Positions 10,277-53,791 of a stretch of 64,000 bases of DNA are shown piece by piece. The notes beneath the pieces are model-generated. The model worked only from the letters and a program-made list of their open reading frames with translations, made no database searches and was not told the DNA's origin. The stretch spans positions 3,697-67,696 of the forward strand of contig CAZKPK010000001.1 of the NCBI GenBank assembly GCA_964554645.1. The letters are read 5' to 3'. This DNA is from an uncultured Candidatus Saccharibacteria bacterium (GTDB lineage Bacteria; Patescibacteriota; Minisyncoccia; Phycocordibacterales; UBA9973). Positions within the stretch are counted from its first letter, which is position 1; every line of letters begins with the position of its first letter. Both the position numbers and the translations under genes were made by a program.

Positions 10277-10897
10277 ATGATGCGATTTATTCTGCCAATT
10301 ATTTTGTTAGGAATCAGCGTGGCTGTTTTTATCATGTTCTCTAATCCTATTTACAATGATATTGGGGGATTGCGCGCGCAGACAGCGTCCTTCAATGAAG
10401 CGCTAAATAATTCCAAAATGCTTGAAAATGAACGAGATAAATTAACTTCCAAATATAATTCTATTGATATAGATAATTTAGCAAAACTCCAAAAGCTTTT
10501 GCCGGAAAATATTGACAATATACGCTTGATTCTTGAGATAGAACAGATAGCCTTGCCTTACGGCATGGCCTTGAAGGATGTAAAATACAATGCGACAGCT
10601 GACAAAGATAAAGCAAGCTCTGCGTCTCCTGTAGCCGGGGTTGCGCAAGGTGGCGAAACGGTCCAATCTTCTTCCAAAGATTATGGAGTTTGGGATTTGG
10701 AGTTTTCCACAACCGGTGCTTACAGCAATTTTCTTAATTTTACAAGAGATCTGGAAAGCAATCTTCGAATTGTCGATATATCATCAATTGCTTTTTCATC
10801 TGATACGAGTAGTGATTCCAGTTCGGCCCCCAAGTCTCCGTCTACCGAATCTTATAAATATAATTTTAAAATTAAGACTTACTGGCTAAAAAATTGA
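10277..10897 (+). CDS. PilO-like pilus assembly membrane protein
   Basis: 206 aa; N-terminal TM then coiled coil (LRAQTASFNEALNNSKMLENERDKL); position based. Confidence 0.55.
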   Translation: MMRFILPIILLGISVAVFIMFSNPIYNDIGGLRAQTASFNEALNNSKMLENERDKLTSKYNSIDIDNLAKLQKLLPENIDNIRLILEIEQIALPYGMALKDVKYNATADKDKASSASPVAGVAQGGETVQSSSKDYGVWDLEFSTTGAYSNFLNFTRDLESNLRIVDISSIAFSSDTSSDSSSAPKSPSTESYKYNFKIKTYWLKN

Positions 10898-14684: not shown

Positions 14685-14689
14685 AAAGA

Positions 14690-14732
14690 CCACAGGTCAG
14701 ACCTGTGGGATTCCCATAGGTCTGACCTATGG
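14690..14732. repeat. family B palindromes, tandem pair (REP-like)
   Basis: CCACAGGTCAGACCTGTGG (14690-14708) and CCCATAGGTCTGACCTATGG (14713-14732) between pilT stop and pilC start. Confidence 0.9.
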
Positions 14733-14744
14733 AACAATAAAGAT

Positions 14745-17955: not shown

Positions 17956-18783
17956 ATGCTTTTTTTGCTTTTGGTTATTTTTTTCATCCTCGGTCTCATC
18001 ATCGGCAGCTTTTTGAATGTGATAATTTATCGGCTGAATACAGCCAGATCGTTCGGAGGCAGGAGCGCTTGTATGTCTTGTCAGAACAGGCTTTGCTGGT
18101 ATGAACTTATCCCACTCTTTAGTTTTTTGGGTCTTGGGGGGAGATGCCGAAGCTGTAAAACTAAAATTTCTATCCAATATCCGTTGGTGGAACTTGCGAC
18201 TGGCTTGATTTTCGCCTTGTTATTTTTTAAACTGCAAGATGTTTTTTATACTAATTCTCTGGTTTTTTTCATCACTTATGATTACTTTGCTTTATTGTTT
18301 TCACTTCTTCTAGTCATTGCCACTTATGATCTCAAACATAAAATAATTCCGGATATTTTGTCTTTTGCTTTTGGCGCGCTTGCTTTTATTGGCCTATTTT
18401 TCTTCTCCGCCCAAGGCGGATCCGCCTTTGGCGGAAATAATATTTTTTACCCCCATTTTCCCACAGTTTTAGAATTTTTGTCGGGTGGATTAATAGCGTT
18501 ACCTTTTGCTTTTTTTTGGCTTGTATCTTCCGGTCGGTGGATGGGGTTAGGGGATGCCAAGCTTGCGCTCGGCATTGGGTGGTTTTTAGGCATATCTTCT
18601 GCGCTCTCGGCTTTAGTGGTTGCTTTCTGGTCTGGAGCCATCGTCGGAATAATTCTCGTTATTTTTTCCAGAAATAGAAAAATTGGCAGGCTGGGGATGA
18701 AAAGCGAAATTCCTTTTGCCCCTTTCCTAGTTTTTGGCGCGTTTCTAGCTTTTATTTTTGGATTGAATCTTTTTGGAATTTAA
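17956..18783 (+). CDS. pilD: prepilin peptidase (A24 family)
   Basis: 275 aa; CMSCQNRL..CRSCKTKI zinc motif, YPLVE, GLGDAKL active-site Asp. Confidence 0.93.
   Translation: MLFLLLVIFFILGLIIGSFLNVIIYRLNTARSFGGRSACMSCQNRLCWYELIPLFSFLGLGGRCRSCKTKISIQYPLVELATGLIFALLFFKLQDVFYTNSLVFFITYDYFALLFSLLLVIATYDLKHKIIPDILSFAFGALAFIGLFFFSAQGGSAFGGNNIFYPHFPTVLEFLSGGLIALPFAFFWLVSSGRWMGLGDAKLALGIGWFLGISSALSALVVAFWSGAIVGIILVIFSRNRKIGRLGMKSEIPFAPFLVFGAFLAFIFGLNLFGI
18407..18434 (+). repeat. family D-like double hairpin inside pilD ORF
   Basis: CCGCC-CAA-GGCGG-AT-CCGCC-TTT-GGCGG, translated SAQGGSAFGG. Confidence 0.75.
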
Positions 18784-20593: not shown

Positions 20594-23222
<2,629 letters not shown>

Positions 23223-29438: not shown

Positions 29439-31367
29439 ATGAAAATTTCTTATAATTGGCTCAAATGGTATATACCGGAAGCGCCTCCCGCAAACAAACT
29501 TGCGGATATTTTTAATTACCATATTTGCGAAGTGGAGAGTGTCCAACACCGAGTGTTGGACAAAGATAAAGATTGGATTTTTGATTTAAAAGTTTTGCCG
29601 AACCGCGCGCATGATTTACTTTCACATCAGGGAGTCGCTCGCGAGCTTGCTTCACTTTTAGATATCAAATATGTAGATCCCACGCCGAAATATAAAATTC
29701 CCGCCTCCGCCAAGGCTGCCCCCTTCGCTGAAGTGGCTACGAAGGCCAAGTCGGCGGGCAAGCCGGAATTAAAAATTGATGTTCAAACGCCTTTATGCAG
29801 GCGATATATGGGCAGAATTATAAGGGGAATAAAAATCGGTCCCAGTCCGGAGTGGATGGTGAAGCATTTAGAATCAATAGGACAGAGAAGTATAAATAAT
29901 ATTGTAGATGCCGCCAATATTGTAATGTTTGATTGCGGACAGCCGACTCATGCTTTTGATCTGGATAAAATGAATAGCAAGATAATAGTGCGCGAGGCAG
30001 AAAATGACGAAGACATAACCACTTTAGATAATCAGGGAATAAAATTAAAAAGTTCAAATATGGTGATTGTAGATTCTAAAAATATTTTAGCGATTGCCGG
30101 AATAAAAGGCGGGAAGATTGCGGAAGTGGACAATAATACAAAAAATATAATTCTTGAGGTTGCTAATTTTGATCCGGTTTCGGTGCGGAAAACAGCTCAA
30201 GCCTTTAATCTATTTACCGACGCGCGAAAGAGGTTTGAAAATGACCTGTCGCCAGAATTGGCACCATATGCCATGCGCGAACTCTCGGCTCTCATTTTTG
30301 AAATGTGTCCGGACGCTATTTTTGAAGATGTTGTGGATGTTTACCCCCACACCAATGATATTGGTGTGGGGGTTTATCCTGAAAAACAAAAGGAGAAAAA
30401 ACTTTCTTTTTCGGCTGAAAGAATTTCAAAAATTTTAGGACTCAAAGTTTCAGTTAAAGAAATAGAAAATATTTTGCAGAGATATAATTTTAGGTATAAA
30501 GAAAATAAAGGGAAATTTGAGGTTGTTGTGCCACCGATGCGTCTTGATTTAGCAATAGAAGAAGATATGGCGGAAGAGATAGGTAGAATTCTGGGATATG
30601 ATAAAGTAAAACCACAAATTCCCCACATGTCTGACATGTGGGAACCACAGGTTAATGAGATTTATGCAAAAATTTCCTGGGTCAGAAATAAATTATTGGC
30701 TGATGGATATTCCGAAGTGATGACTTATACTTTTCGAGAAAAGGGAGAAATAGAAGTGCAAAATAGCGCTTCCGATAAAAAGTTTTTGCGAACGAATTTA
30801 ACTGATGGATTGAAAGAAAGCGTTAAATTAAATCACGCCAATGCCCCGCTGTTAGGAATTGACGAAATTAAAGTTTTTGAAATTGGAACTGTTTTCAAAA
30901 AAGATAAAGAGCAGATAAATATTTGTTTTAGTGACAAAAAAAATATCACAGAAGTTTCTTTAAATGATTTTTGTAAAGATATGCTTTCTAGTGATTCTCC
31001 TCTTGAGGAGTACCCTTTAGGGGGAGGTGGAAAATTTATCCACCCCGTCGCAAGCGCCACCCCTCAAGAGGGGAATAGATTCAAGATGTGGTCTTTGTTT
31101 CCTTTCATTGCGCGCGATATCGCTGTCTTTGTGCCGGAAAAAATTAAGAGTTTGGAAATAGAAAAAATAATAAAAAAGAATATGGGAAATATGGTGATTC
31201 GAGGTCCGGAACTTTTTGATGAATTCAAAAAAGGCAATCAGATTTCTTATGCCTTCAGATTGGTTTTTCAATCTTACGATCGGACACTGACAGACGCAGA
31301 AGTGAATGAAATTATGGATAAAATAACTGACAAAATTAAGAAGAATAAAGGTTGGCAAGTAAGGTAA
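29439..31367 (+). CDS. pheT: phenylalanine--tRNA ligase beta subunit (reduced architecture, several repeat-derived inserts)
   Basis: 642 aa; MKISYNWLKWYI, LPNRAHDLLSHQGVAREL, B3_4 IVDAANIVMFDCGQPTHAFDLDK, C-terminal FPFIARDIAVFV. Confidence 0.93.
   Translation: MKISYNWLKWYIPEAPPANKLADIFNYHICEVESVQHRVLDKDKDWIFDLKVLPNRAHDLLSHQGVARELASLLDIKYVDPTPKYKIPASAKAAPFAEVATKAKSAGKPELKIDVQTPLCRRYMGRIIRGIKIGPSPEWMVKHLESIGQRSINNIVDAANIVMFDCGQPTHAFDLDKMNSKIIVREAENDEDITTLDNQGIKLKSSNMVIVDSKNILAIAGIKGGKIAEVDNNTKNIILEVANFDPVSVRKTAQAFNLFTDARKRFENDLSPELAPYAMRELSALIFEMCPDAIFEDVVDVYPHTNDIGVGVYPEKQKEKKLSFSAERISKILGLKVSVKEIENILQRYNFRYKENKGKFEVVVPPMRLDLAIEEDMAEEIGRILGYDKVKPQIPHMSDMWEPQVNEIYAKISWVRNKLLADGYSEVMTYTFREKGEIEVQNSASDKKFLRTNLTDGLKESVKLNHANAPLLGIDEIKVFEIGTVFKKDKEQINICFSDKKNITEVSLNDFCKDMLSSDSPLEEYPLGGGGKFIHPVASATPQEGNRFKMWSLFPFIARDIAVFVPEKIKSLEIEKIIKKNMGNMVIRGPELFDEFKKGNQISYAFRLVFQSYDRTLTDAEVNEIMDKITDKIKKNKGWQVR
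29700..29758. repeat. GC-rich imperfect long hairpin inside pheT
   Basis: CCCGCC..CCTTCG / CGAAGG..GGCGGG arms; translated PASAKAAPFAEVATKAKSAG; strong local GC excess. Confidence 0.55.
30343..30373. repeat. 31-nt perfect palindrome inside pheT
   Basis: ACCCCCACACCAAT-GAT-ATTGGTGTGGGGGT; flanked by GTTTAC/GTTTAT; translated YPHTNDIGVGV. Confidence 0.85.
30622..30642. repeat. family B variant palindrome inside pheT
   Basis: CCCACATGTCTGACATGTGGG (21 nt), translated PHMSDMW (compare HRSDLW from canonical copies). Confidence 0.8.
30993..31076. repeat. family A inverted doublet inserted in frame in pheT
   Basis: GATTCTCCTCTTGAGGAG..GGGAGGTGGA + ATCCACCCCGTCGCAAGCGCCACCCCTCAAGAGGGGAAT; 84 nt = 28 codons (DSPLEEYPLGGGGKFIHPVASATPQEGN). 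Confidence 0.9.
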
Positions 31368-31379
31368 AACCTGCTATAA

Positions 31380-33488
<2,109 letters not shown>

Positions 33489-33507
33489 ATTTATTATATT
33501 GCGCTTT

Positions 33508-34095
33508 ATGAAAAAATTAATCTTAGCTTCAAGTTCAAGCACAAGGAAAAATTTGCTTACAGAAGCCGGCTTGAATTTTGAAATTGATCCAAGTAGTTAC
33601 GAAGAAGATATAACATTATTAATGTCTCCAAAAGAATTAGTGGCTCATTTATCTTACGGTAAAGCAAAAGATGTAGCATCGAGGCACCAAGAAGCCATAG
33701 TTCTAGGAGCTGATACAATTATTGTCTATCAAGATAAAATTCTCGGTAAACCTCATACATCGGAAAGAGCTAAAGAAATGTTAAAAATGTTAAGTGGTAG
33801 GGCACACTTAGTTGTTACTGGTTTTACAATAATTGATACGAAAAATAATCATAGCATCTCCAAAGTTGTAGAAACAGAAGTGTTTTTCAAAAATCTCACA
33901 GATAGAGAAATAGATAATTATGTAGCTACCGGTGAACCACTGAATAAAGCAGGGGCTTATGCAATTTTAGAGAATGGTGGCAAATTTGTTAAAAAGATCG
34001 AAGGAAGTAGAACAAATGTGTCAGGTTTACCCATGGAGGAGTTAATGAATGTTCTAAAAAATTCCCATAGGTCAGACCTATGGGATGTGTTATAA
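33508..34095 (+). CDS. maf: Maf-like nucleoside triphosphate pyrophosphatase
   Basis: 195 aa from ATG 33508; KLILASSSSTRKNLL, GADTIIVYQDKILGKP, AGAYAI; last residues (HRSDLWDVL) encoded by a family B palindrome. Confidence 0.88.
   Translation: MKKLILASSSSTRKNLLTEAGLNFEIDPSSYEEDITLLMSPKELVAHLSYGKAKDVASRHQEAIVLGADTIIVYQDKILGKPHTSERAKEMLKMLSGRAHLVVTGFTIIDTKNNHSISKVVETEVFFKNLTDREIDNYVATGEPLNKAGAYAILENGGKFVKKIEGSRTNVSGLPMEELMNVLKNSHRSDLWDVL
34064..34084. repeat. family B palindrome (left flank of RAYT gene)
   Basis: CCCATAGGTCAGACCTATGGG. Confidence 0.9.
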
Positions 34096-34102
34096 TAGCA
34101 GT

Positions 34103-34780
34103 ATGAGTCTCAGAGATTCGAATTTAGTGGAAAAAGAGTATTATCATATTTACAATCGCGGTAATGGAAAAAATAAAATTTTTAATTCCATAGAAGATTA
34201 CGATCGTTTTTGTAAACTTCTTTTTATTTGTAATTCTGAAAGAAGTTTTACATTCAGAGATTCAGTCGTAGATCAAAAAATTGATGCCTGGGATTTTGAA
34301 AGGGGAGAACCGCTTGTGGAAATATGTGCATGGGTTTTAATGCCTAATCATTTCCATATAATTTTAATTTCCCATAGGTCGGACCTATGGGATGAGAAGT
34401 ATAATCCAATAACGGAATTTATGAGAAAACTTTCTACGGCTTACGCTATGTATTTTAATAAGAAATATAACCGCACTGGATCTCTTTTTGAAGGAAAGTT
34501 TAAGTCTAAACATATTAGCAAAGATAATTATTTCCATTATTTATTTTCTTACATTCATCTTAATCCAATTAAATTAATCCAACCAGATTGGAAAGAAAAT
34601 GGTATCAAGAATAAAAAAGAAGCGATTGCTTATCTTATGAATTTTAAATATTCAAGTTTTCAAGATTTTTATGGTGTCTCTAGAAAAGAAGGAAAGATAA
34701 TAAATAAGAATTCGTTACCAGAAGATTTTAAATACAATCATGTTGAGGAACTTTTTGAATGGATAACTGATTCCCCATAG
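34103..34780 (+). CDS. IS200-like Y1 HUH transposase, REP-associated (RAYT-like)
   Basis: YHIYNRGN, HUH motif LMPNHFHIIL, catalytic Tyr motif YIHLNP; flanked by palindromes at 34064 and 34773. Confidence 0.85.
   Translation: MSLRDSNLVEKEYYHIYNRGNGKNKIFNSIEDYDRFCKLLFICNSERSFTFRDSVVDQKIDAWDFERGEPLVEICAWVLMPNHFHIILISHRSDLWDEKYNPITEFMRKLSTAYAMYFNKKYNRTGSLFEGKFKSKHISKDNYFHYLFSYIHLNPIKLIQPDWKENGIKNKKEAIAYLMNFKYSSFQDFYGVSRKEGKIINKNSLPEDFKYNHVEELFEWITDSP
34371..34391. repeat. family B palindrome inserted inside the RAYT ORF
   Basis: CCCATAGGTCGGACCTATGGG, 21 nt = 7 codons (SHRSDLW), 2 residues after the HUH motif. Confidence 0.9.
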
Positions 34781-34795
34781 GTCAGACCTATGGGG
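34773..34795. repeat. family B palindrome (right flank; provides RAYT stop codon)
   Basis: CCCCATAGGTCAGACCTATGGGG; the TAG at 34778-34780 is the stop. Confidence 0.9.
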
Positions 34796-34834
34796 AATCA
34801 CTTCTTGAAATTCTCAAAAAAGAAAGGAAATAAA

Positions 34835-53100: not shown

Positions 53101-53791
53101 TCCCGCCTCTGGCGGGACAGGTGTAAAATCTGCTCACTCCCGCGATATTTCAGGATCCGGCGGGGAAAAAATAATCAAAGTGCTTTCAGATCTGGAAGAT
53201 AGTAAGGCGGGGGCTAAAAACGAAATAGAATATCTTGTTCCGTTTCACAGAATGCCTACCGTTAAAGCAGGTGATCACATAAAGAAAGGGGATCTCCTAA
53301 CTGACGGGTCAGCGGATATTGCTGAAATGTTTAAATTTGGCAACAAGGAATTAGTCGAAAATTATATAATTCGGGAAATAAACAAAGTTTATGAATTGCA
53401 AAGCGCTTCAATTTCCAGAAAGCATACGGAAATAATTATCCGCCAAATGTTTTCGCGCCGAAAAATAAAAGACGCGGGCGACACTAATTTTTCCATCGGC
53501 GATATTGTTGAGAATACCGCATTTATAGAAGAAAATCAGAGAGTTGCGCGCTTGGCGGTTAAACCGCCAAGCGCGCTTGGCGGTTTAACCGCCAAAGCAG
53601 AAACAGTGGTGCTTGGTATCACGGAAGTGTCGCTTCGCACTAAAAGTTGGCTCTCGGCGGCTTCGTTCCAAAACACCAATCGCGTTCTTATTGAAAACGC
53701 GGTCAAGGGCGGGGTAGATTCTTTGAGAGGGTTAAAAGAGAATGTTATAATCGGTAGGTTAATTCCGGCTGGAACTGGATTTAAAAAATAA
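50120..53791 (+). CDS. rpoC: DNA-directed RNA polymerase subunit beta'
   Basis: 1223 aa; Zn CYCGKY..CEKCGV, NADFDGDQMAV, GEAVGIIAAQAIGEPGTQLTLRTFH. Confidence 0.98.
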   Translation: MKTLNTTEFNSIALRLASPEQIKEWSFGEVTKPETINYRTGRSERGGLFDEKIFGPEKDYECYCGKYRRIRYKDIICEKCGVEVTRSIVRRERMGHIELGTPVSHIWFLRGVPSRMSILLNISVTDLEKVIYFAGYIITKVHEDEKEAVIANLDKEYKSKLKNATDDDTREKLKNLLSITKKEIGEIYEGKVLNEISFHHYSLKYGTCFEANIGAEAIYSIFKNLDLDKLKTHTEKMIEKASVAEKEKLQKRLSLIRAMTYAGIRPEWMFLTVFPVIPPVLRPMVALDGGRHATSDLNDLYRRVINRNNRLKKLKEINAPDVILRNEKRIIQEAVDALIDNSIAKQNDSAAMSQSQKRPLKSLSDNLKSKQGLFRQNLLGKRVDYSGRSVIVVGPELKLNQCGLPKHMALELFRPFVISKILQAELAFNIRGANKLIEERGGEVWAMLEEVIAGKYVLLNRAPTLHRLGIQAFNPILIEGNAIQVHPLVCQAFNADFDGDQMAVYVPLLEEAQWEAKEFMASNKNLLKPQNGDPIVHPRMDMVLGSFWMTKSIEGEVGEGKYFSRPNTAVTAYDYGIISMRAKIKVLPMDKPKYKKFNGEIFETTVGRIIFNSILPDDFHYVNDEMTQDRLSSLLDELIMHSGVENIPHILDTIKAFGFKYSTISGTTWGLDNVSVSSEKPKIIAEGKKLEKEIISQWQEGLLSEEEKYQKVIEVWTHMKKNLEKVLPKTVDKHSSTYDIFTSKARGTMSSLMQMTGMIGLIQNNQGKTLEFPIIPCYQEGLSPIEYFVITHGARKGASDTALNTAKAGYLTRRLVDVAQDVVITEVDCGTKEGRIVTKENISGIEIPLSKNIRGRVLAGDLKNKNGKVVYKKGFLVTKEEAYNIEGAGFTEVFVRSPLTCRTVHGLCVMCYGLDLGRNRLVELGEAVGIIAAQAIGEPGTQLTLRTFHAGGVAGTDITTGLPRVEEIFERRIPKNPAIISETDGEVIEIKIKDPASGGTGVKSAHSRDISGSGGEKIIKVLSDLEDSKAGAKNEIEYLVPFHRMPTVKAGDHIKKGDLLTDGSADIAEMFKFGNKELVENYIIREINKVYELQSASISRKHTEIIIRQMFSRRKIKDAGDTNFSIGDIVENTAFIEENQRVARLAVKPPSALGGLTAKAETVVLGITEVSLRTKSWLSAASFQNTNRVLIENAVKGGVDSLRGLKENVIIGRLIPAGTGFKK
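53102..53116. repeat. GC hairpin within a GC-rich segment of rpoC
   Basis: CCCGCC-TCT-GGCGGG; surrounding 53095-53170 encodes DPASGGTGVKSAHSRDISGSGGE. Confidence 0.55.
53546..53597. repeat. family C palindrome doublet inside rpoC
   Basis: GCGCGCTTGGCGGTT-A-AACCGCCAAGCGCGC (31-nt perfect palindrome) + CTTGGCGGTTTAACCGCCAAAG; translated LAVKPPSALGGLTAK. Confidence 0.92.

What the first reader, a model, noticed from the sequence alone, without database searches (positions are those of the whole stretch)
34371..34391. The RAYT gene carries a copy of its own palindrome in frame, two residues after the HUH motif
CCCATAGGTCGGACCTATGGG is 21 nt, exactly 7 codons, and reads SHRSDLW within HFHIIL-I-SHRSDLW-DEKYNP. 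The element length is a multiple of three, so the frame is preserved. This is either self-targeting that may have disabled or modified the enzyme, or a tolerated loop insertion. Either outcome bears on whether the B family is still mobile.
Basis: partly seen in the sequence, partly recalled or inferred. Interest (0 to 1): 0.6.

Follow-up and report, generated by a model that had tools for sequence, protein, structure and literature searches.

The report
RAYT gene carrying its own palindrome
A transposase-like gene of a tiny uncultured bacterium carries, inside its own reading frame, a third copy of the DNA hairpin that flanks it; the copy is ancient, is preserved as DNA rather than as protein, and has not disabled the enzyme.

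Summary
CCCATAGGTCgGACCTATGGG (34371-34391) lies in frame in a RAYT-like gene (34103-34780). It reads SHRSDLW, starting four residues after the HUH histidines, and the same palindrome flanks the gene on both sides.

Across 150 related Patescibacteria genes, 54 have a 10-residue loop here and none has a palindrome. The other 96 have a longer loop (17 residues in the window, so +7), and 78 of them carry a perfect stem of at least 8 bp at this spot. These 96 form one group in a tree built with the loop masked, which fits one old in-frame insertion.

It is neither recent nor disabling. HUH and the catalytic Tyr are intact, and dN/dS is about 0.1.

What is conserved is self-complementary DNA. There are 43 different stems, the encoded peptide changes with the stem, and synonymous changes are compensatory. 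The internal stem matches the flanking hairpins of its own locus in 46 of 55 loci, against 0.8% between loci. This holds among orthologues that keep gyrB...thrS synteny.

In-frame REPs inside RAYT genes, between HuH and Tyr, were already reported for subclass 2.4 (Quentin et al. 2018). I therefore rate this a new variant of a known kind. Its function is inferred, not shown; most likely it is a working RAYT site.

The parts
34063..34085 (.). Upstream REP hairpin (U): TCCCATAGGTCaGACCTATGGGA. It also encodes the last residues of the Maf ORF (...NSHRSDLWDVL*).
   Evidence: Folds at -9.4 kcal/mol as ssDNA. Called terminator-like on both strands. An equivalent hairpin with the locus-specific stem lies just before the promoter in most homologous loci.
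34088..34096 (+). Extended -10 box, TGtTATAAT, ending 6 nt before the start codon. This is a probable leaderless promoter, which places the upstream REP in the -35/spacer region (inferred).
   Evidence: Read from the sequence. In 103 of 131 homologous loci a box matching TATAAT at 5 of 6 or better lies between the upstream hairpin and the start codon, against 27 of 121 in the control. Its end is 6-9 nt from the start codon in 87 of those 103. The simple promoter scan did not call it, because there is no -35 match.
34103..34780 (+). RAYT-like Y1 HUH transposase gene, 225 aa; ATG at 34103, as in the homologues.
   Evidence: Pfam Y1_Tnp scores 20.6 bits (cut-off 23). NCBIfam NF047646 REP_Tyr_transpos scores 45.9 bits (cut-off 80). 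The best PDB fold match is 4er8_A, the E. coli RAYT bound to a REP hairpin (E 9e-6). More than 7900 homologues were found, those named being Patescibacteria.
34349..34357 (+). HUH motif codons, CAT TTC CAT (H83-F84-H85).
   Evidence: invariant N82 H83 F84 H85.
34370..34392 (.). Internal REP hairpin (I): TCCCATAGGTCgGACCTATGGGA. Codons 34370-34390 read SHRSDLW. This is the finding.
34550..34552 (+). Catalytic tyrosine codon (Y150 in YIHLNP).
   Evidence: Invariant Y150 H152 L153 N154 P155 in alignment A1. Position read.
34768..34800 (.). Downstream REP hairpin (D): TGATTCCCCATAGGTCaGACCTATGGGGAATCA, with 16-nt arms. Its TAG at 34778-34780 is the stop codon of the RAYT gene.
   Evidence: (I5). 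Folds at -15.7 kcal/mol as ssDNA and -25.2 as RNA.
14689..14733 (.). Extragenic doublet of the same REP family, with two stem variants side by side: ACCACAGGTCaGACCTGTGGG and CCCATAGGTCtGACCTATGGA. It lies between a pilT-like and a pilC-like ORF.

Best explanation
The palindrome is a third, intragenic copy of the REP hairpin belonging to this gene's own REPtron. The layout is: upstream REP, leaderless promoter, 5' part of the gene with HUH, internal REP, 3' part with the catalytic Tyr, and a downstream REP that supplies the stop codon.

Shown:
- One old in-frame insertion into the surface loop after the HUH strand is the most economical origin.
- The insertion has been inherited by a large Patescibacteria clade.
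- The encoded peptide is a passenger; what is kept is Watson-Crick self-complementarity of the DNA.
- The stem stays the same as that of the two flanking copies of the same locus, while it differs among lineages.
- The enzyme is under strong purifying selection.

Inferred:
- The three hairpins stay matched because all three are substrates of the same enzyme. By analogy with E. coli TnpAREP, that enzyme binds, cuts and rejoins REP hairpins in single-stranded DNA.
- Arms are probably kept perfect and copies kept alike by hairpin exchange or template switching at these sites, together with selection for recognition.
- The likely consequence is self-limitation of the RAYT. The gene and its transcript contain the enzyme's own stable target hairpin, between the two catalytic motifs.
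For: Conservation of structure rather than peptide:
- The DNA right after HUH is a palindrome in most homologues, but with different sequences and different encoded peptides, such as SHRSDLW, SPRSDLG, SPKSDLG, NAEARLPQ, SPTPGVGE and NPGDQVTG.
- 56 of 81 genes have a perfect stem of at least 8 bp there. This compares with about 4% of synonymous recodings and 1% of control windows in the same genes.
- On 44 aligned hairpins, 12 of 13 pairs show changes on both sides. The inner 9 pairs show no one-sided change, and 0 of 500 shuffles reach the observed covariation score.
- His CAT/Leu CTA switches to His CAC/Leu CTG, which is synonymous and compensatory.
- WIN and L088 have an identical hairpin at dS about 2.

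Match to the flanks:
- The internal 8-nt arm core forms a hairpin in the flanking zones of its own locus in 46 of 55 loci, and in both zones in 35.
- Between loci with different cores the figure is 24 of 2914. There are 37 distinct cores in this set, and 43 in the larger set.
- Paralogues within one MAG each match their own flanks.

Origin:
- 54 short-loop genes have no palindrome; 96 long-loop genes include 78 with a perfect stem.
- The long/short split is recovered with the loop masked, in 44 of 60 bootstraps.

Evolution in place:
- gyrB...RAYT...thrS synteny is kept in 14 loci whose stems differ.

Intact enzyme:
- Invariant HUH and Tyr; dN/dS 0.07-0.18; RAYT fold.

Hints of DNA-level action and exchange:
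- Among hairpins with a single mismatch, the mismatches read out are A.C (three), A.G and C.T, and none is a G.T wobble.
- Whole hairpins including loops recur in either orientation, with only 6 of 117 loops being neither the same nor the complement.
- The palindrome centre is shifted by non-multiples of 3 in some classes.
Against: - No biochemical or expression data exist for this family; binding, cleavage and any feedback are inferred from E. coli TnpAREP (PMC3479197).
- The internal copy is dispensable. At least a dozen long-loop genes let it decay while keeping intact flanking REPs and an intact ORF (L003, L016, L020, L041, L042, L053, L059). The whole short-loop group works without one.
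- Quentin et al. 2018 (PMC6006769) read comparable insertions in subclass 2.4 as peripheral and of little impact.
- In the window itself the loop base of I (G) is neither the same as nor complementary to that of U and D (A).
- The covariation alignment was built from hairpins chosen for perfect stems, so its 'percent paired' value is inflated.
- Some metagenome loci duplicate genome loci.
Confidence: 0.5

Rival explanations
1. Tolerated passenger with no role. A REP landed in a permissive loop and cannot be removed without a precise deletion. Its palindromy and its likeness to the flanking copies are kept only by mechanical homogenisation: template switching within quasi-palindromes, and short-tract conversion among three copies lying within 750 nt.
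For: - The loop is peripheral and of low confidence in the model.
- The peptide has no conserved residue across stem classes.
- About 12-18 of 96 long-loop genes have lost the palindrome without losing the ORF or the flanking REPs.
- The short-loop group needs no internal copy.
- The published view for subclass 2.4 is that such insertions have little impact.
Against: - Retention (78-84 of 96) is about as high as for the flanking hairpins, over divergences where synonymous sites are saturated.
- These are AT-rich genomes, yet the GC-rich codons AGG, GAC, CTA and TCC are held. Once decay starts they drift to AT-rich synonyms, as in L003.
- Homogenisation across only 21-27 bp of homology, with unrelated flanks, has not been demonstrated.
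Confidence: 0.3
2. An mRNA-level element. The hairpin is selected as RNA structure inside a leaderless transcript, acting as a ribosome pause, an RNase target or a stabiliser, independently of RAYT binding. Its likeness to the flanking REPs would only reflect its origin.
For: - The hairpin is stable as RNA (-16.1 kcal/mol).
- The promoter lies downstream of the upstream REP, so the internal copy is the first hairpin in the transcript and the downstream copy closes it at the stop codon.
- REP hairpins near stop codons and in transcripts are discussed as translation or stability elements (Di Nocera 2013, PMC3733652).
Against: - An RNA-only role does not explain why the stem keeps tracking the flanking copies, including the untranscribed upstream one.
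- No G.U pairs or one-sided changes occur in the inner stem, and the single mismatches read out are A.C, A.G and C.T, never G.T.
- Loop orientation at the internal site flips between close relatives: AAG in L028, CTT in L019.
Confidence: 0.12
3. A recent self-targeting insertion that disabled or altered the enzyme; this is the first reader's first option.
For: The segment is indeed an insertion of exactly 7 residues relative to the short-loop relatives, and it sits between the HUH and Tyr motifs.
Against: - The same segment is present in all 31 close homologues and in a clade of 96 genes.
- dN/dS is about 0.1, with invariant catalytic residues.
- Synteny is conserved.
Confidence: 0.02
4. A protein motif (SHRSDLW) needed by the enzyme, whose coding DNA happens to be palindromic.
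For: R92, S93, D94 and L95 are invariant among the 31 closest homologues.
Against: - The peptide is replaced wholesale in other subclades while the palindrome persists.
- Codon choice is fixed or co-varies at synonymous sites.
- The same 21 nt occur outside genes.
Confidence: 0.01
5. Three double-stranded operators for a dimeric DNA-binding regulator, at the promoter, inside the gene and at its end. In that case the palindromic symmetry reflects a protein dimer rather than hairpin formation.
For: Perfect dyad symmetry with an odd centre is also typical of operators, and the upstream copy overlaps the promoter.
Against: - The arms are contiguous, running 9-16 bp right up to the centre, and occur in 43 or more unrelated sequences.
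- No regulator gene is conserved next to the locus.
- The encoded enzyme belongs to a fold that binds such sequences as single-stranded hairpins.
Confidence: 0.03

Closest known systems
REP insertions inside tnpAREP genes of TnpAY1 subclass 2.4 (RAYT group 4), Quentin, Siguier, Chandler & Fichant 2018, BMC Genomics 19:475 (PMC6006769)
   Same: In both, REP copies sit inside the RAYT gene itself in addition to the flanking ones. They do not break the reading frame and lie between the HuH and Tyr motifs, after strand beta3, in a region modelled as peripheral.
   Different: - Subclass 2.4 was described from Cyanobacteria, Bacteroidetes and others; no Patescibacteria names were found in that paper's text or its held supplementary files.
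- Its REPs carry a GT[AG]G foot or 'double foot'. Here only 9 of 261 flanking hairpins have such a foot.
- Its insertion domain is highly variable in length and sequence, with a median HuH-Tyr distance of 88 aa, and it has no C-terminal extension. Here there is one short perfect palindrome at one fixed site, a HuH-Tyr distance of 65 aa, and a C-terminal extension of about 70 aa.
- Single origin, long-term retention and co-variation with the flanking copies are not in the passages I read.
Classical REPtron: E. coli rayT (yafM) with flanking REP/BIME; structure 4ER8
   Same: Both have the Y1 HUH fold, with 4er8_A as the best PDB match. Both have HUH and a Tyr helix. Both genes are flanked by cognate hairpins, are single-copy and are vertically inherited.
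   Different: - E. coli rayT has no hairpin of at least 8 matched pairs (one mismatch allowed) after HMH or anywhere in the gene and its near flanks.
- E. coli REPs are imperfect, with bulges and a 5' GTAG. Here the hairpins are perfect palindromes without a conserved foot.
- The sequence models score below their cut-offs here.
Intragenic REPs and Rickettsia palindromic elements (RPE) inserted in frame in protein genes (Di Nocera et al. 2013, PMC3733652, and the work cited there)
   Same: In both, palindromic repeats are tolerated in frame in coding regions, and REP ends supply TAG stop codons to neighbouring ORFs. In the window the downstream REP supplies the RAYT stop codon, and the upstream REP encodes the Maf tail.
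   Different: In those cases the host genes are unrelated to the repeat's mobilising enzyme. Here the host gene is the cognate enzyme, and the copy stays matched to the flanking ones.
IS200/IS605 TnpA with subterminal LE/RE hairpins
   Same: Same fold, and in both the hairpins at the two ends of the gene are recognised as single-stranded DNA.
   Different: IS copies are multiple and mobile. Here there is one copy in the window, a fixed chromosomal context, perfect palindromes and a third hairpin inside the gene.

Membership tests
RAYT / TnpAREP (REP-associated Y1 HUH transposase) | HUH motif and a catalytic Tyr on a following helix (Y-x-x-x-N-P type) | tested here: met
   H83-F84-H85 and Y150-I-H-L-N-P are invariant in 32 sequences.
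RAYT / TnpAREP (REP-associated Y1 HUH transposase) | Y1 transposase fold closest to a solved RAYT | tested here: met
   Foldseek top hit is 4er8_A (E 9e-6, probability 1.00), followed by the ISDra2, IS200 and IS608 TnpA structures. The model is only moderate (pLDDT 64, pTM 0.68).
RAYT / TnpAREP (REP-associated Y1 HUH transposase) | Passes the curated sequence models | tested here: not met
   Pfam PF01797 scores 20.6 bits against a cut-off of 23. NCBIfam NF047646 scores 45.9 bits against a cut-off of 80. A PDB sequence-profile search found nothing. This is a divergent relative, not an equivalog.
RAYT / TnpAREP (REP-associated Y1 HUH transposase) | Gene flanked by cognate palindromes (REPtron), each paralogue with its own type | tested here: met
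RAYT / TnpAREP (REP-associated Y1 HUH transposase) | The same palindrome dispersed in many extragenic copies in the genome | tested here: inconclusive
   Only one extragenic doublet was found in 64 kb, and few extra copies within +/-6 kb in other loci. Whole genomes were not available.
RAYT / TnpAREP (REP-associated Y1 HUH transposase) | Conserved 5' GT[AG]G guide tetranucleotide at the hairpin foot | tested here: not met
   9 of 261 flanking hairpins have it; there is no dominant tetranucleotide.
RAYT / TnpAREP (REP-associated Y1 HUH transposase) | Binds and cleaves the REP as single-stranded DNA | not testable with these tools
   Requires biochemistry.
TnpAY1 subclass 2.4 (Quentin et al. 2018) | In-frame REP inside the gene, between HuH and Tyr, after beta3 | tested here: met
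TnpAY1 subclass 2.4 (Quentin et al. 2018) | Long HuH-Tyr distance (median 88 aa), variable insertion domain, no C-terminal extension, GT[AG]G or double-foot REPs | tested here: not met
   The H85-Y150 distance is 65 aa. About 70 residues follow the Tyr helix. There is no GT[AG]G foot. The descriptions of subclass 2.4 come.
TnpAY1 subclass 2.4 (Quentin et al. 2018) | Assignment by the authors' subclass HMM or tree | not testable with these tools
   The profiles are not held. No Patescibacteria names appear in that paper's text or its held supplementary files.
IS200/IS605 insertion sequence | Multiple near-identical mobile copies, with varying genomic context | tested here: not met
   One copy in the window. 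The gyrB...thrS context is kept in 14 loci at 62-87% protein identity.

The most novel reading that the evidence does not exclude
The internal hairpin is a selected part of the system rather than a tolerated scar. By carrying its own recognition hairpin between its two catalytic motifs, the RAYT gene is subject to its own product, which binds, cuts and rejoins it in single-stranded DNA, or binds it in the leaderless mRNA. This would give negative feedback. It would also physically couple the enzyme gene to the REP family, so that enzyme and hairpin change together. The shifted-phase palindromes would then be traces of RAYT-mediated hairpin swapping at a resident site.
Probability: 0.25. Interest if true: 0.75.

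Novelty: new variant of a known kind. Interest (0 to 1): 0.5.

Why it matters
The enzyme of this palindrome family is not crippled by the insertion, so the family may still be active.
- It shows that a 'conserved peptide motif' (SHRSDLW) can be a by-product of DNA-level conservation. This is a caution for annotation and for motif-based inference.
- The clade is a natural experiment. At least 43 enzyme/hairpin pairs exist, each with three matched copies, many at one orthologous chromosomal site. They could be used to work out how RAYTs read their hairpins and how REP families are kept uniform, both of which are open questions in the REP/RAYT field.
- These repeats also break metagenome assemblies exactly at the palindrome; contig L132 ends at residue 96.

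Tried and rejected
- A PDB sequence-profile search with alignment A1 gave no meaningful hit; the fold search was needed.
- The first literature search (RAYT + Patescibacteria) returned only noise. A search for phrases such as 'intragenic REP' returned nothing.
- Nunvar 2010, Bertels 2017 and Corneloup 2021 do not mention internal REPs under the terms searched. My first term search of Quentin 2018 also missed the passage; reading its REP section found it.
- Rfam at permissive threshold gave only chance-level snoRNA and sRNA hits.
- The consensus promoter scan did not call the TGtTATAAT box. I rely instead on its conservation in relatives.
- E. coli rayT, checked as a comparator, has no internal hairpin; my first coordinates for it were wrong.
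- tblastn found no second RAYT gene in the window.
- I considered and rejected a protein-level motif, a recent disabling insertion, and an intrinsic terminator (no T-run follows the internal hairpin).
- The idea that the palindrome-encoded peptide itself reads the hairpin was not pursued. The loop is of low confidence, and the equivalent region in subclass 2.4 was modelled away from the DNA surface.
- I did not use the remaining protein-database searches, because DNA was what mattered here.

Full report
**What is in the window**

The sequence is as reported. CCCATAGGTCGGACCTATGGG lies at 34371-34391. With one more T/A pair it is a 23-nt perfect palindrome (34370-34392). It lies in the only long ORF there, on the + strand, ending at 34780. 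Homologues start at the ATG at 34103, giving 225 aa. Codons 34370-34390 read SHRSDLW, four residues (IILI) after H83-F84-H85.

The same palindrome, with A instead of G at the centre, occurs at 34064-34084 and at 34774-34794. A degenerate doublet lies at 14689-14733. That makes 5 matches at up to 3 mismatches, against 0.00 expected.

The upstream copy encodes the tail of the preceding Maf ORF (…NSHRSDLWDVL*). The downstream copy has 16-nt arms (34768-34800), and its TAG is the stop codon of the gene. All three fold as stable hairpins as single-stranded DNA (-9.4, -9.4 and -15.7 kcal/mol). The two copies folded as RNA, the internal and the downstream one, are also stable (-16.1 and -25.2 kcal/mol).

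**What the gene is**

- Pfam Y1_Tnp scores 20.6 bits, just under the cut-off of 23.
- NCBIfam 'REP-associated tyrosine transposase' scores 45.9 bits, under the cut-off of 80.
- A PDB sequence search finds nothing.
- The AlphaFold model (pLDDT 64, pTM 0.68) has as its best solved match 4er8_A, the E. coli RAYT bound to a REP hairpin (E 9e-6). IS200/IS605 transposases follow.
- HUH and Y150-IHLNP are invariant.

It is therefore a divergent RAYT-like Y1 HUH enzyme flanked by its own palindromes, an arrangement called a REPtron. More than 7900 homologues exist, those named being Patescibacteria.

**The segment is not a private insertion**

In 31 homologues at 63-88% identity, all about 225 aa long, SHRSDLW is nearly invariant. 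That rules out a recent event.

I then fetched DNA for 80 loci from genomes and 80 from metagenomes. Right after HUH the DNA is a palindrome in most of them, but a different one in each lineage, and the peptide changes with it:

| Palindrome | Encoded peptide |
|---|---|
| CCCCTAGGTCnGACCTAGGGG | SPRSDLG |
| CCCCTAAGTCGGACTTAGGGG | SPKSDLG |
| GCGGAAGCAAGGCTTCCGC | NAEARLPQ |
| CCCCGACACCAGGTGTCGGGG | SPTPGVGE |
| CCCGGTGACCAGGTCACCGGG | NPGDQVTG |

So the conserved object is self-complementary DNA, and the peptide is a passenger.

The numbers support this.
- 56 of 81 genes have a perfect stem of at least 8 bp in the 66 nt after HUH. This compares with about 4% of synonymous recodings and about 1% of control windows in the same genes.
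- On 44 aligned hairpins with a one-base loop, 12 of 13 pairs have changes on both sides. The inner nine pairs have no one-sided change. No shuffle reaches the observed covariation score, and slid registers collapse. Those hairpins were chosen for perfect stems, so the 'percent paired' value is inflated; the diversity of pairs is not.
- Within the SHRSDLW group, His CAT with Leu CTA is replaced by His CAC with Leu CTG, a synonymous and compensatory switch.
- WIN and L088 have an identical hairpin although dS between them is about 2.
- Where the palindrome has decayed (L003), the codons have drifted to AT-rich synonyms (AGA, GAT, TTA).

**The internal copy tracks the flanking copies**

I searched independently for the best hairpin in three zones of each locus: just before the start, just after HUH, and at the stop. 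The same stem appears in all three zones of a locus, and different stems appear in different loci.

The inner 8-nt arm of the internal copy forms a hairpin in the flanks of its own locus in 46 of 55 loci, and in both flanks in 35. Between loci with different cores the figure is 24 of 2914.

Paralogues within one assembly, such as L008, L023, L037 and L052, mostly carry different palindromes, each matching or nearly matching its own flanking copies.

In the window's own subclade the gene sits between gyrB and thrS in 14 loci, yet the stems differ among them. The three copies have therefore changed together, in place, in a vertically inherited gene.

**Origin**

54 of 150 genes have exactly 10 residues between HFH and the next helix, and none of them has a palindrome. 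The other 96 have 10-25 residues there (17 in the window, so +7), and 78 have a perfect stem of at least 8 bp. Six more have a single mismatch.

With the loop masked, a neighbour-joining tree separates the long from the short forms exactly. 44 of 60 bootstraps agree. The more distant relatives, at 37-50% identity, are all short, and E. coli rayT has no internal hairpin.

The economical reading is one old in-frame insertion of a REP, followed by about a dozen independent decays. The short-loop genes have the classical arrangement, with two flanking REPs, usually in inverted orientation.

**The enzyme is not disabled**

The catalytic residues are invariant. dN/dS is 0.07-0.18 at dS 0.65-3. The insertion falls in the loop between strand 83-90 and helix 102-121, where residues 92-95 have pLDDT below 50.

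**Other anatomy**

- In 103 of 131 loci a box matching TATAAT at 5 of 6 or better lies between the upstream hairpin and the start codon (control 27 of 121). It ends 6-9 nt before the start codon in 87 of them.
- In the window this box is TGtTATAAT, 34088-34096, 6 nt before the ATG. The mRNA is probably leaderless, and the upstream REP sits at the -35/spacer.
- The internal copy is therefore the first hairpin in the transcript, and the downstream copy closes it.
- Loop orientation: the upstream copy is more often inverted relative to the internal one (37 against 22); the downstream copy goes either way. Only 6 of 117 loops are neither the same nor complementary.
- The canonical GT[AG]G foot is absent, being present in only 9 of 261 flanking hairpins.

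**Mechanism**

Shown: a three-hairpin REPtron, with DNA-level conservation and concerted change.

Inferred from E. coli TnpAREP, which binds, cuts and rejoins REP hairpins in single-stranded DNA (PMC3479197): the three copies are substrates of one enzyme and are kept alike for that reason.

Three hints favour DNA-level action over RNA-level action, and exchange over mere point substitution.
- The single mismatches read out are A.C, A.G and C.T, and none is a G.T wobble.
- The 3-nt loop flips between close relatives, AAG in L028 and CTT in L019.
- The centre of the palindrome is at +26 nt (±3n), in phase 3, in 40 of 44 one-base-loop cases, but at +27, +28 or +30 in other classes.

The likely effect is self-limitation of the RAYT, but this is untested.

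The main rival is that the copy is a tolerated scar kept only by homogenisation. This view is strengthened by the lineages that lost the palindrome without harm, and by the published reading of similar insertions.

**Comparison with what is known**

Quentin et al. [quoted passage not shown] The kind of feature is therefore known.

This family differs in several ways:
- it is a Patescibacteria family, and that paper names none;
- it has one short perfect palindrome at one fixed site;
- its HuH-Tyr distance is 65 aa, against a median of 88;
- it has a C-terminal extension of about 70 aa;
- it has no GT[AG]G foot.

I could not test formal subclass membership.

I did not find the single origin, the long retention or the co-variation with the flanks in the passages read, nor in Nunvar 2010, Bertels 2017 or Corneloup 2021 under the terms searched.

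In-frame REPs in other genes, and REPs that supply TAG stop codons, are also known.

**Verdict**

This is a new variant of a known kind, of moderate interest, mainly as a natural data set on how an enzyme and its hairpins change together.

Noticed in passing
L018, L022, L048, L062, L064, L066, L076, L080 and others, within about 150 nt of the RAYT gene ends; window hits are only at 10703, 16068 and 46665: A DnaA-box-like 9-mer, TT(A/T)TCCACA, lies just beside many flanking REPs. It occurs 25 times in 61 kb near the gene ends and 58 times in 888 kb elsewhere, about 6-fold enrichment. It is not present at the window's own locus.
   Followed up: partly
window 34088-34102, and 131 homologous loci: A -10 box ends 6-9 nt before the RAYT start codon in 87 of 103 loci, with no Shine-Dalgarno sequence. 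This suggests a conserved leaderless mRNA, with the upstream REP in the -35/spacer region.
   Followed up: partly
window 33478-34095: The last 11 codons of the Maf ORF (…NSHRSDLWDVL*) are encoded by the upstream REP and its 3' flank. The same palindrome is thus read in the same frame in two different genes.
   Followed up: partly
window 21763-21804, 53546-53595, 18406-18435 and 30343-30373: Other palindrome families are present: TTGGCGGTTAAACCGCCAAG doublets at two sites, TCCGCCCAAGGCGGA/TCCGCCTTTGGCGGA, and ACCCCCACACCAAT…ATTGGTGTGGGGGT. The window holds no second RAYT gene, so their cognate genes, if any, lie elsewhere.
   Followed up: no
window 14689-14733: An intergenic REP doublet between the pilT-like and pilC-like ORFs carries the two stem variants, CCACAGGTC and CCATAGGTC, side by side. 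These are the same two variants that distinguish the gene-associated triplets of close relatives.
   Followed up: partly
L034 U/D, L050 D, L062 U/D, L019 D, L027 U, L052 U, L055 D, L079 D: Many flanking REPs have a 'third arm': one arm of the hairpin is repeated directly next to it, which would allow alternative pairings.
   Followed up: no
L016, L020, L117, L150, L156 (flanking zones): Some flanking REPs are doublets of two palindromes in inverted orientation, separated by 3-7 nt, resembling REPINs.
   Followed up: no
L008/L023/L037/L052 (DATKGV01), L007/L010 (AWSN01), L028/L073/L080, L032/L050: Single assemblies hold two to four RAYT paralogues, sometimes one long-loop and one short-loop. 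Most have their own palindrome type, although L023 and L037 share one.
   Followed up: partly
L132 (contig end at residue 96), L118, P0050: Several metagenome contigs end at or near the internal palindrome, which suggests that the triplicated repeat breaks assemblies.
   Followed up: no
L101 and L102, internal site: In these two loci the palindrome inside the gene has arms of 19-20 nt, so about 14 codons of the loop are palindrome-encoded.
   Followed up: no
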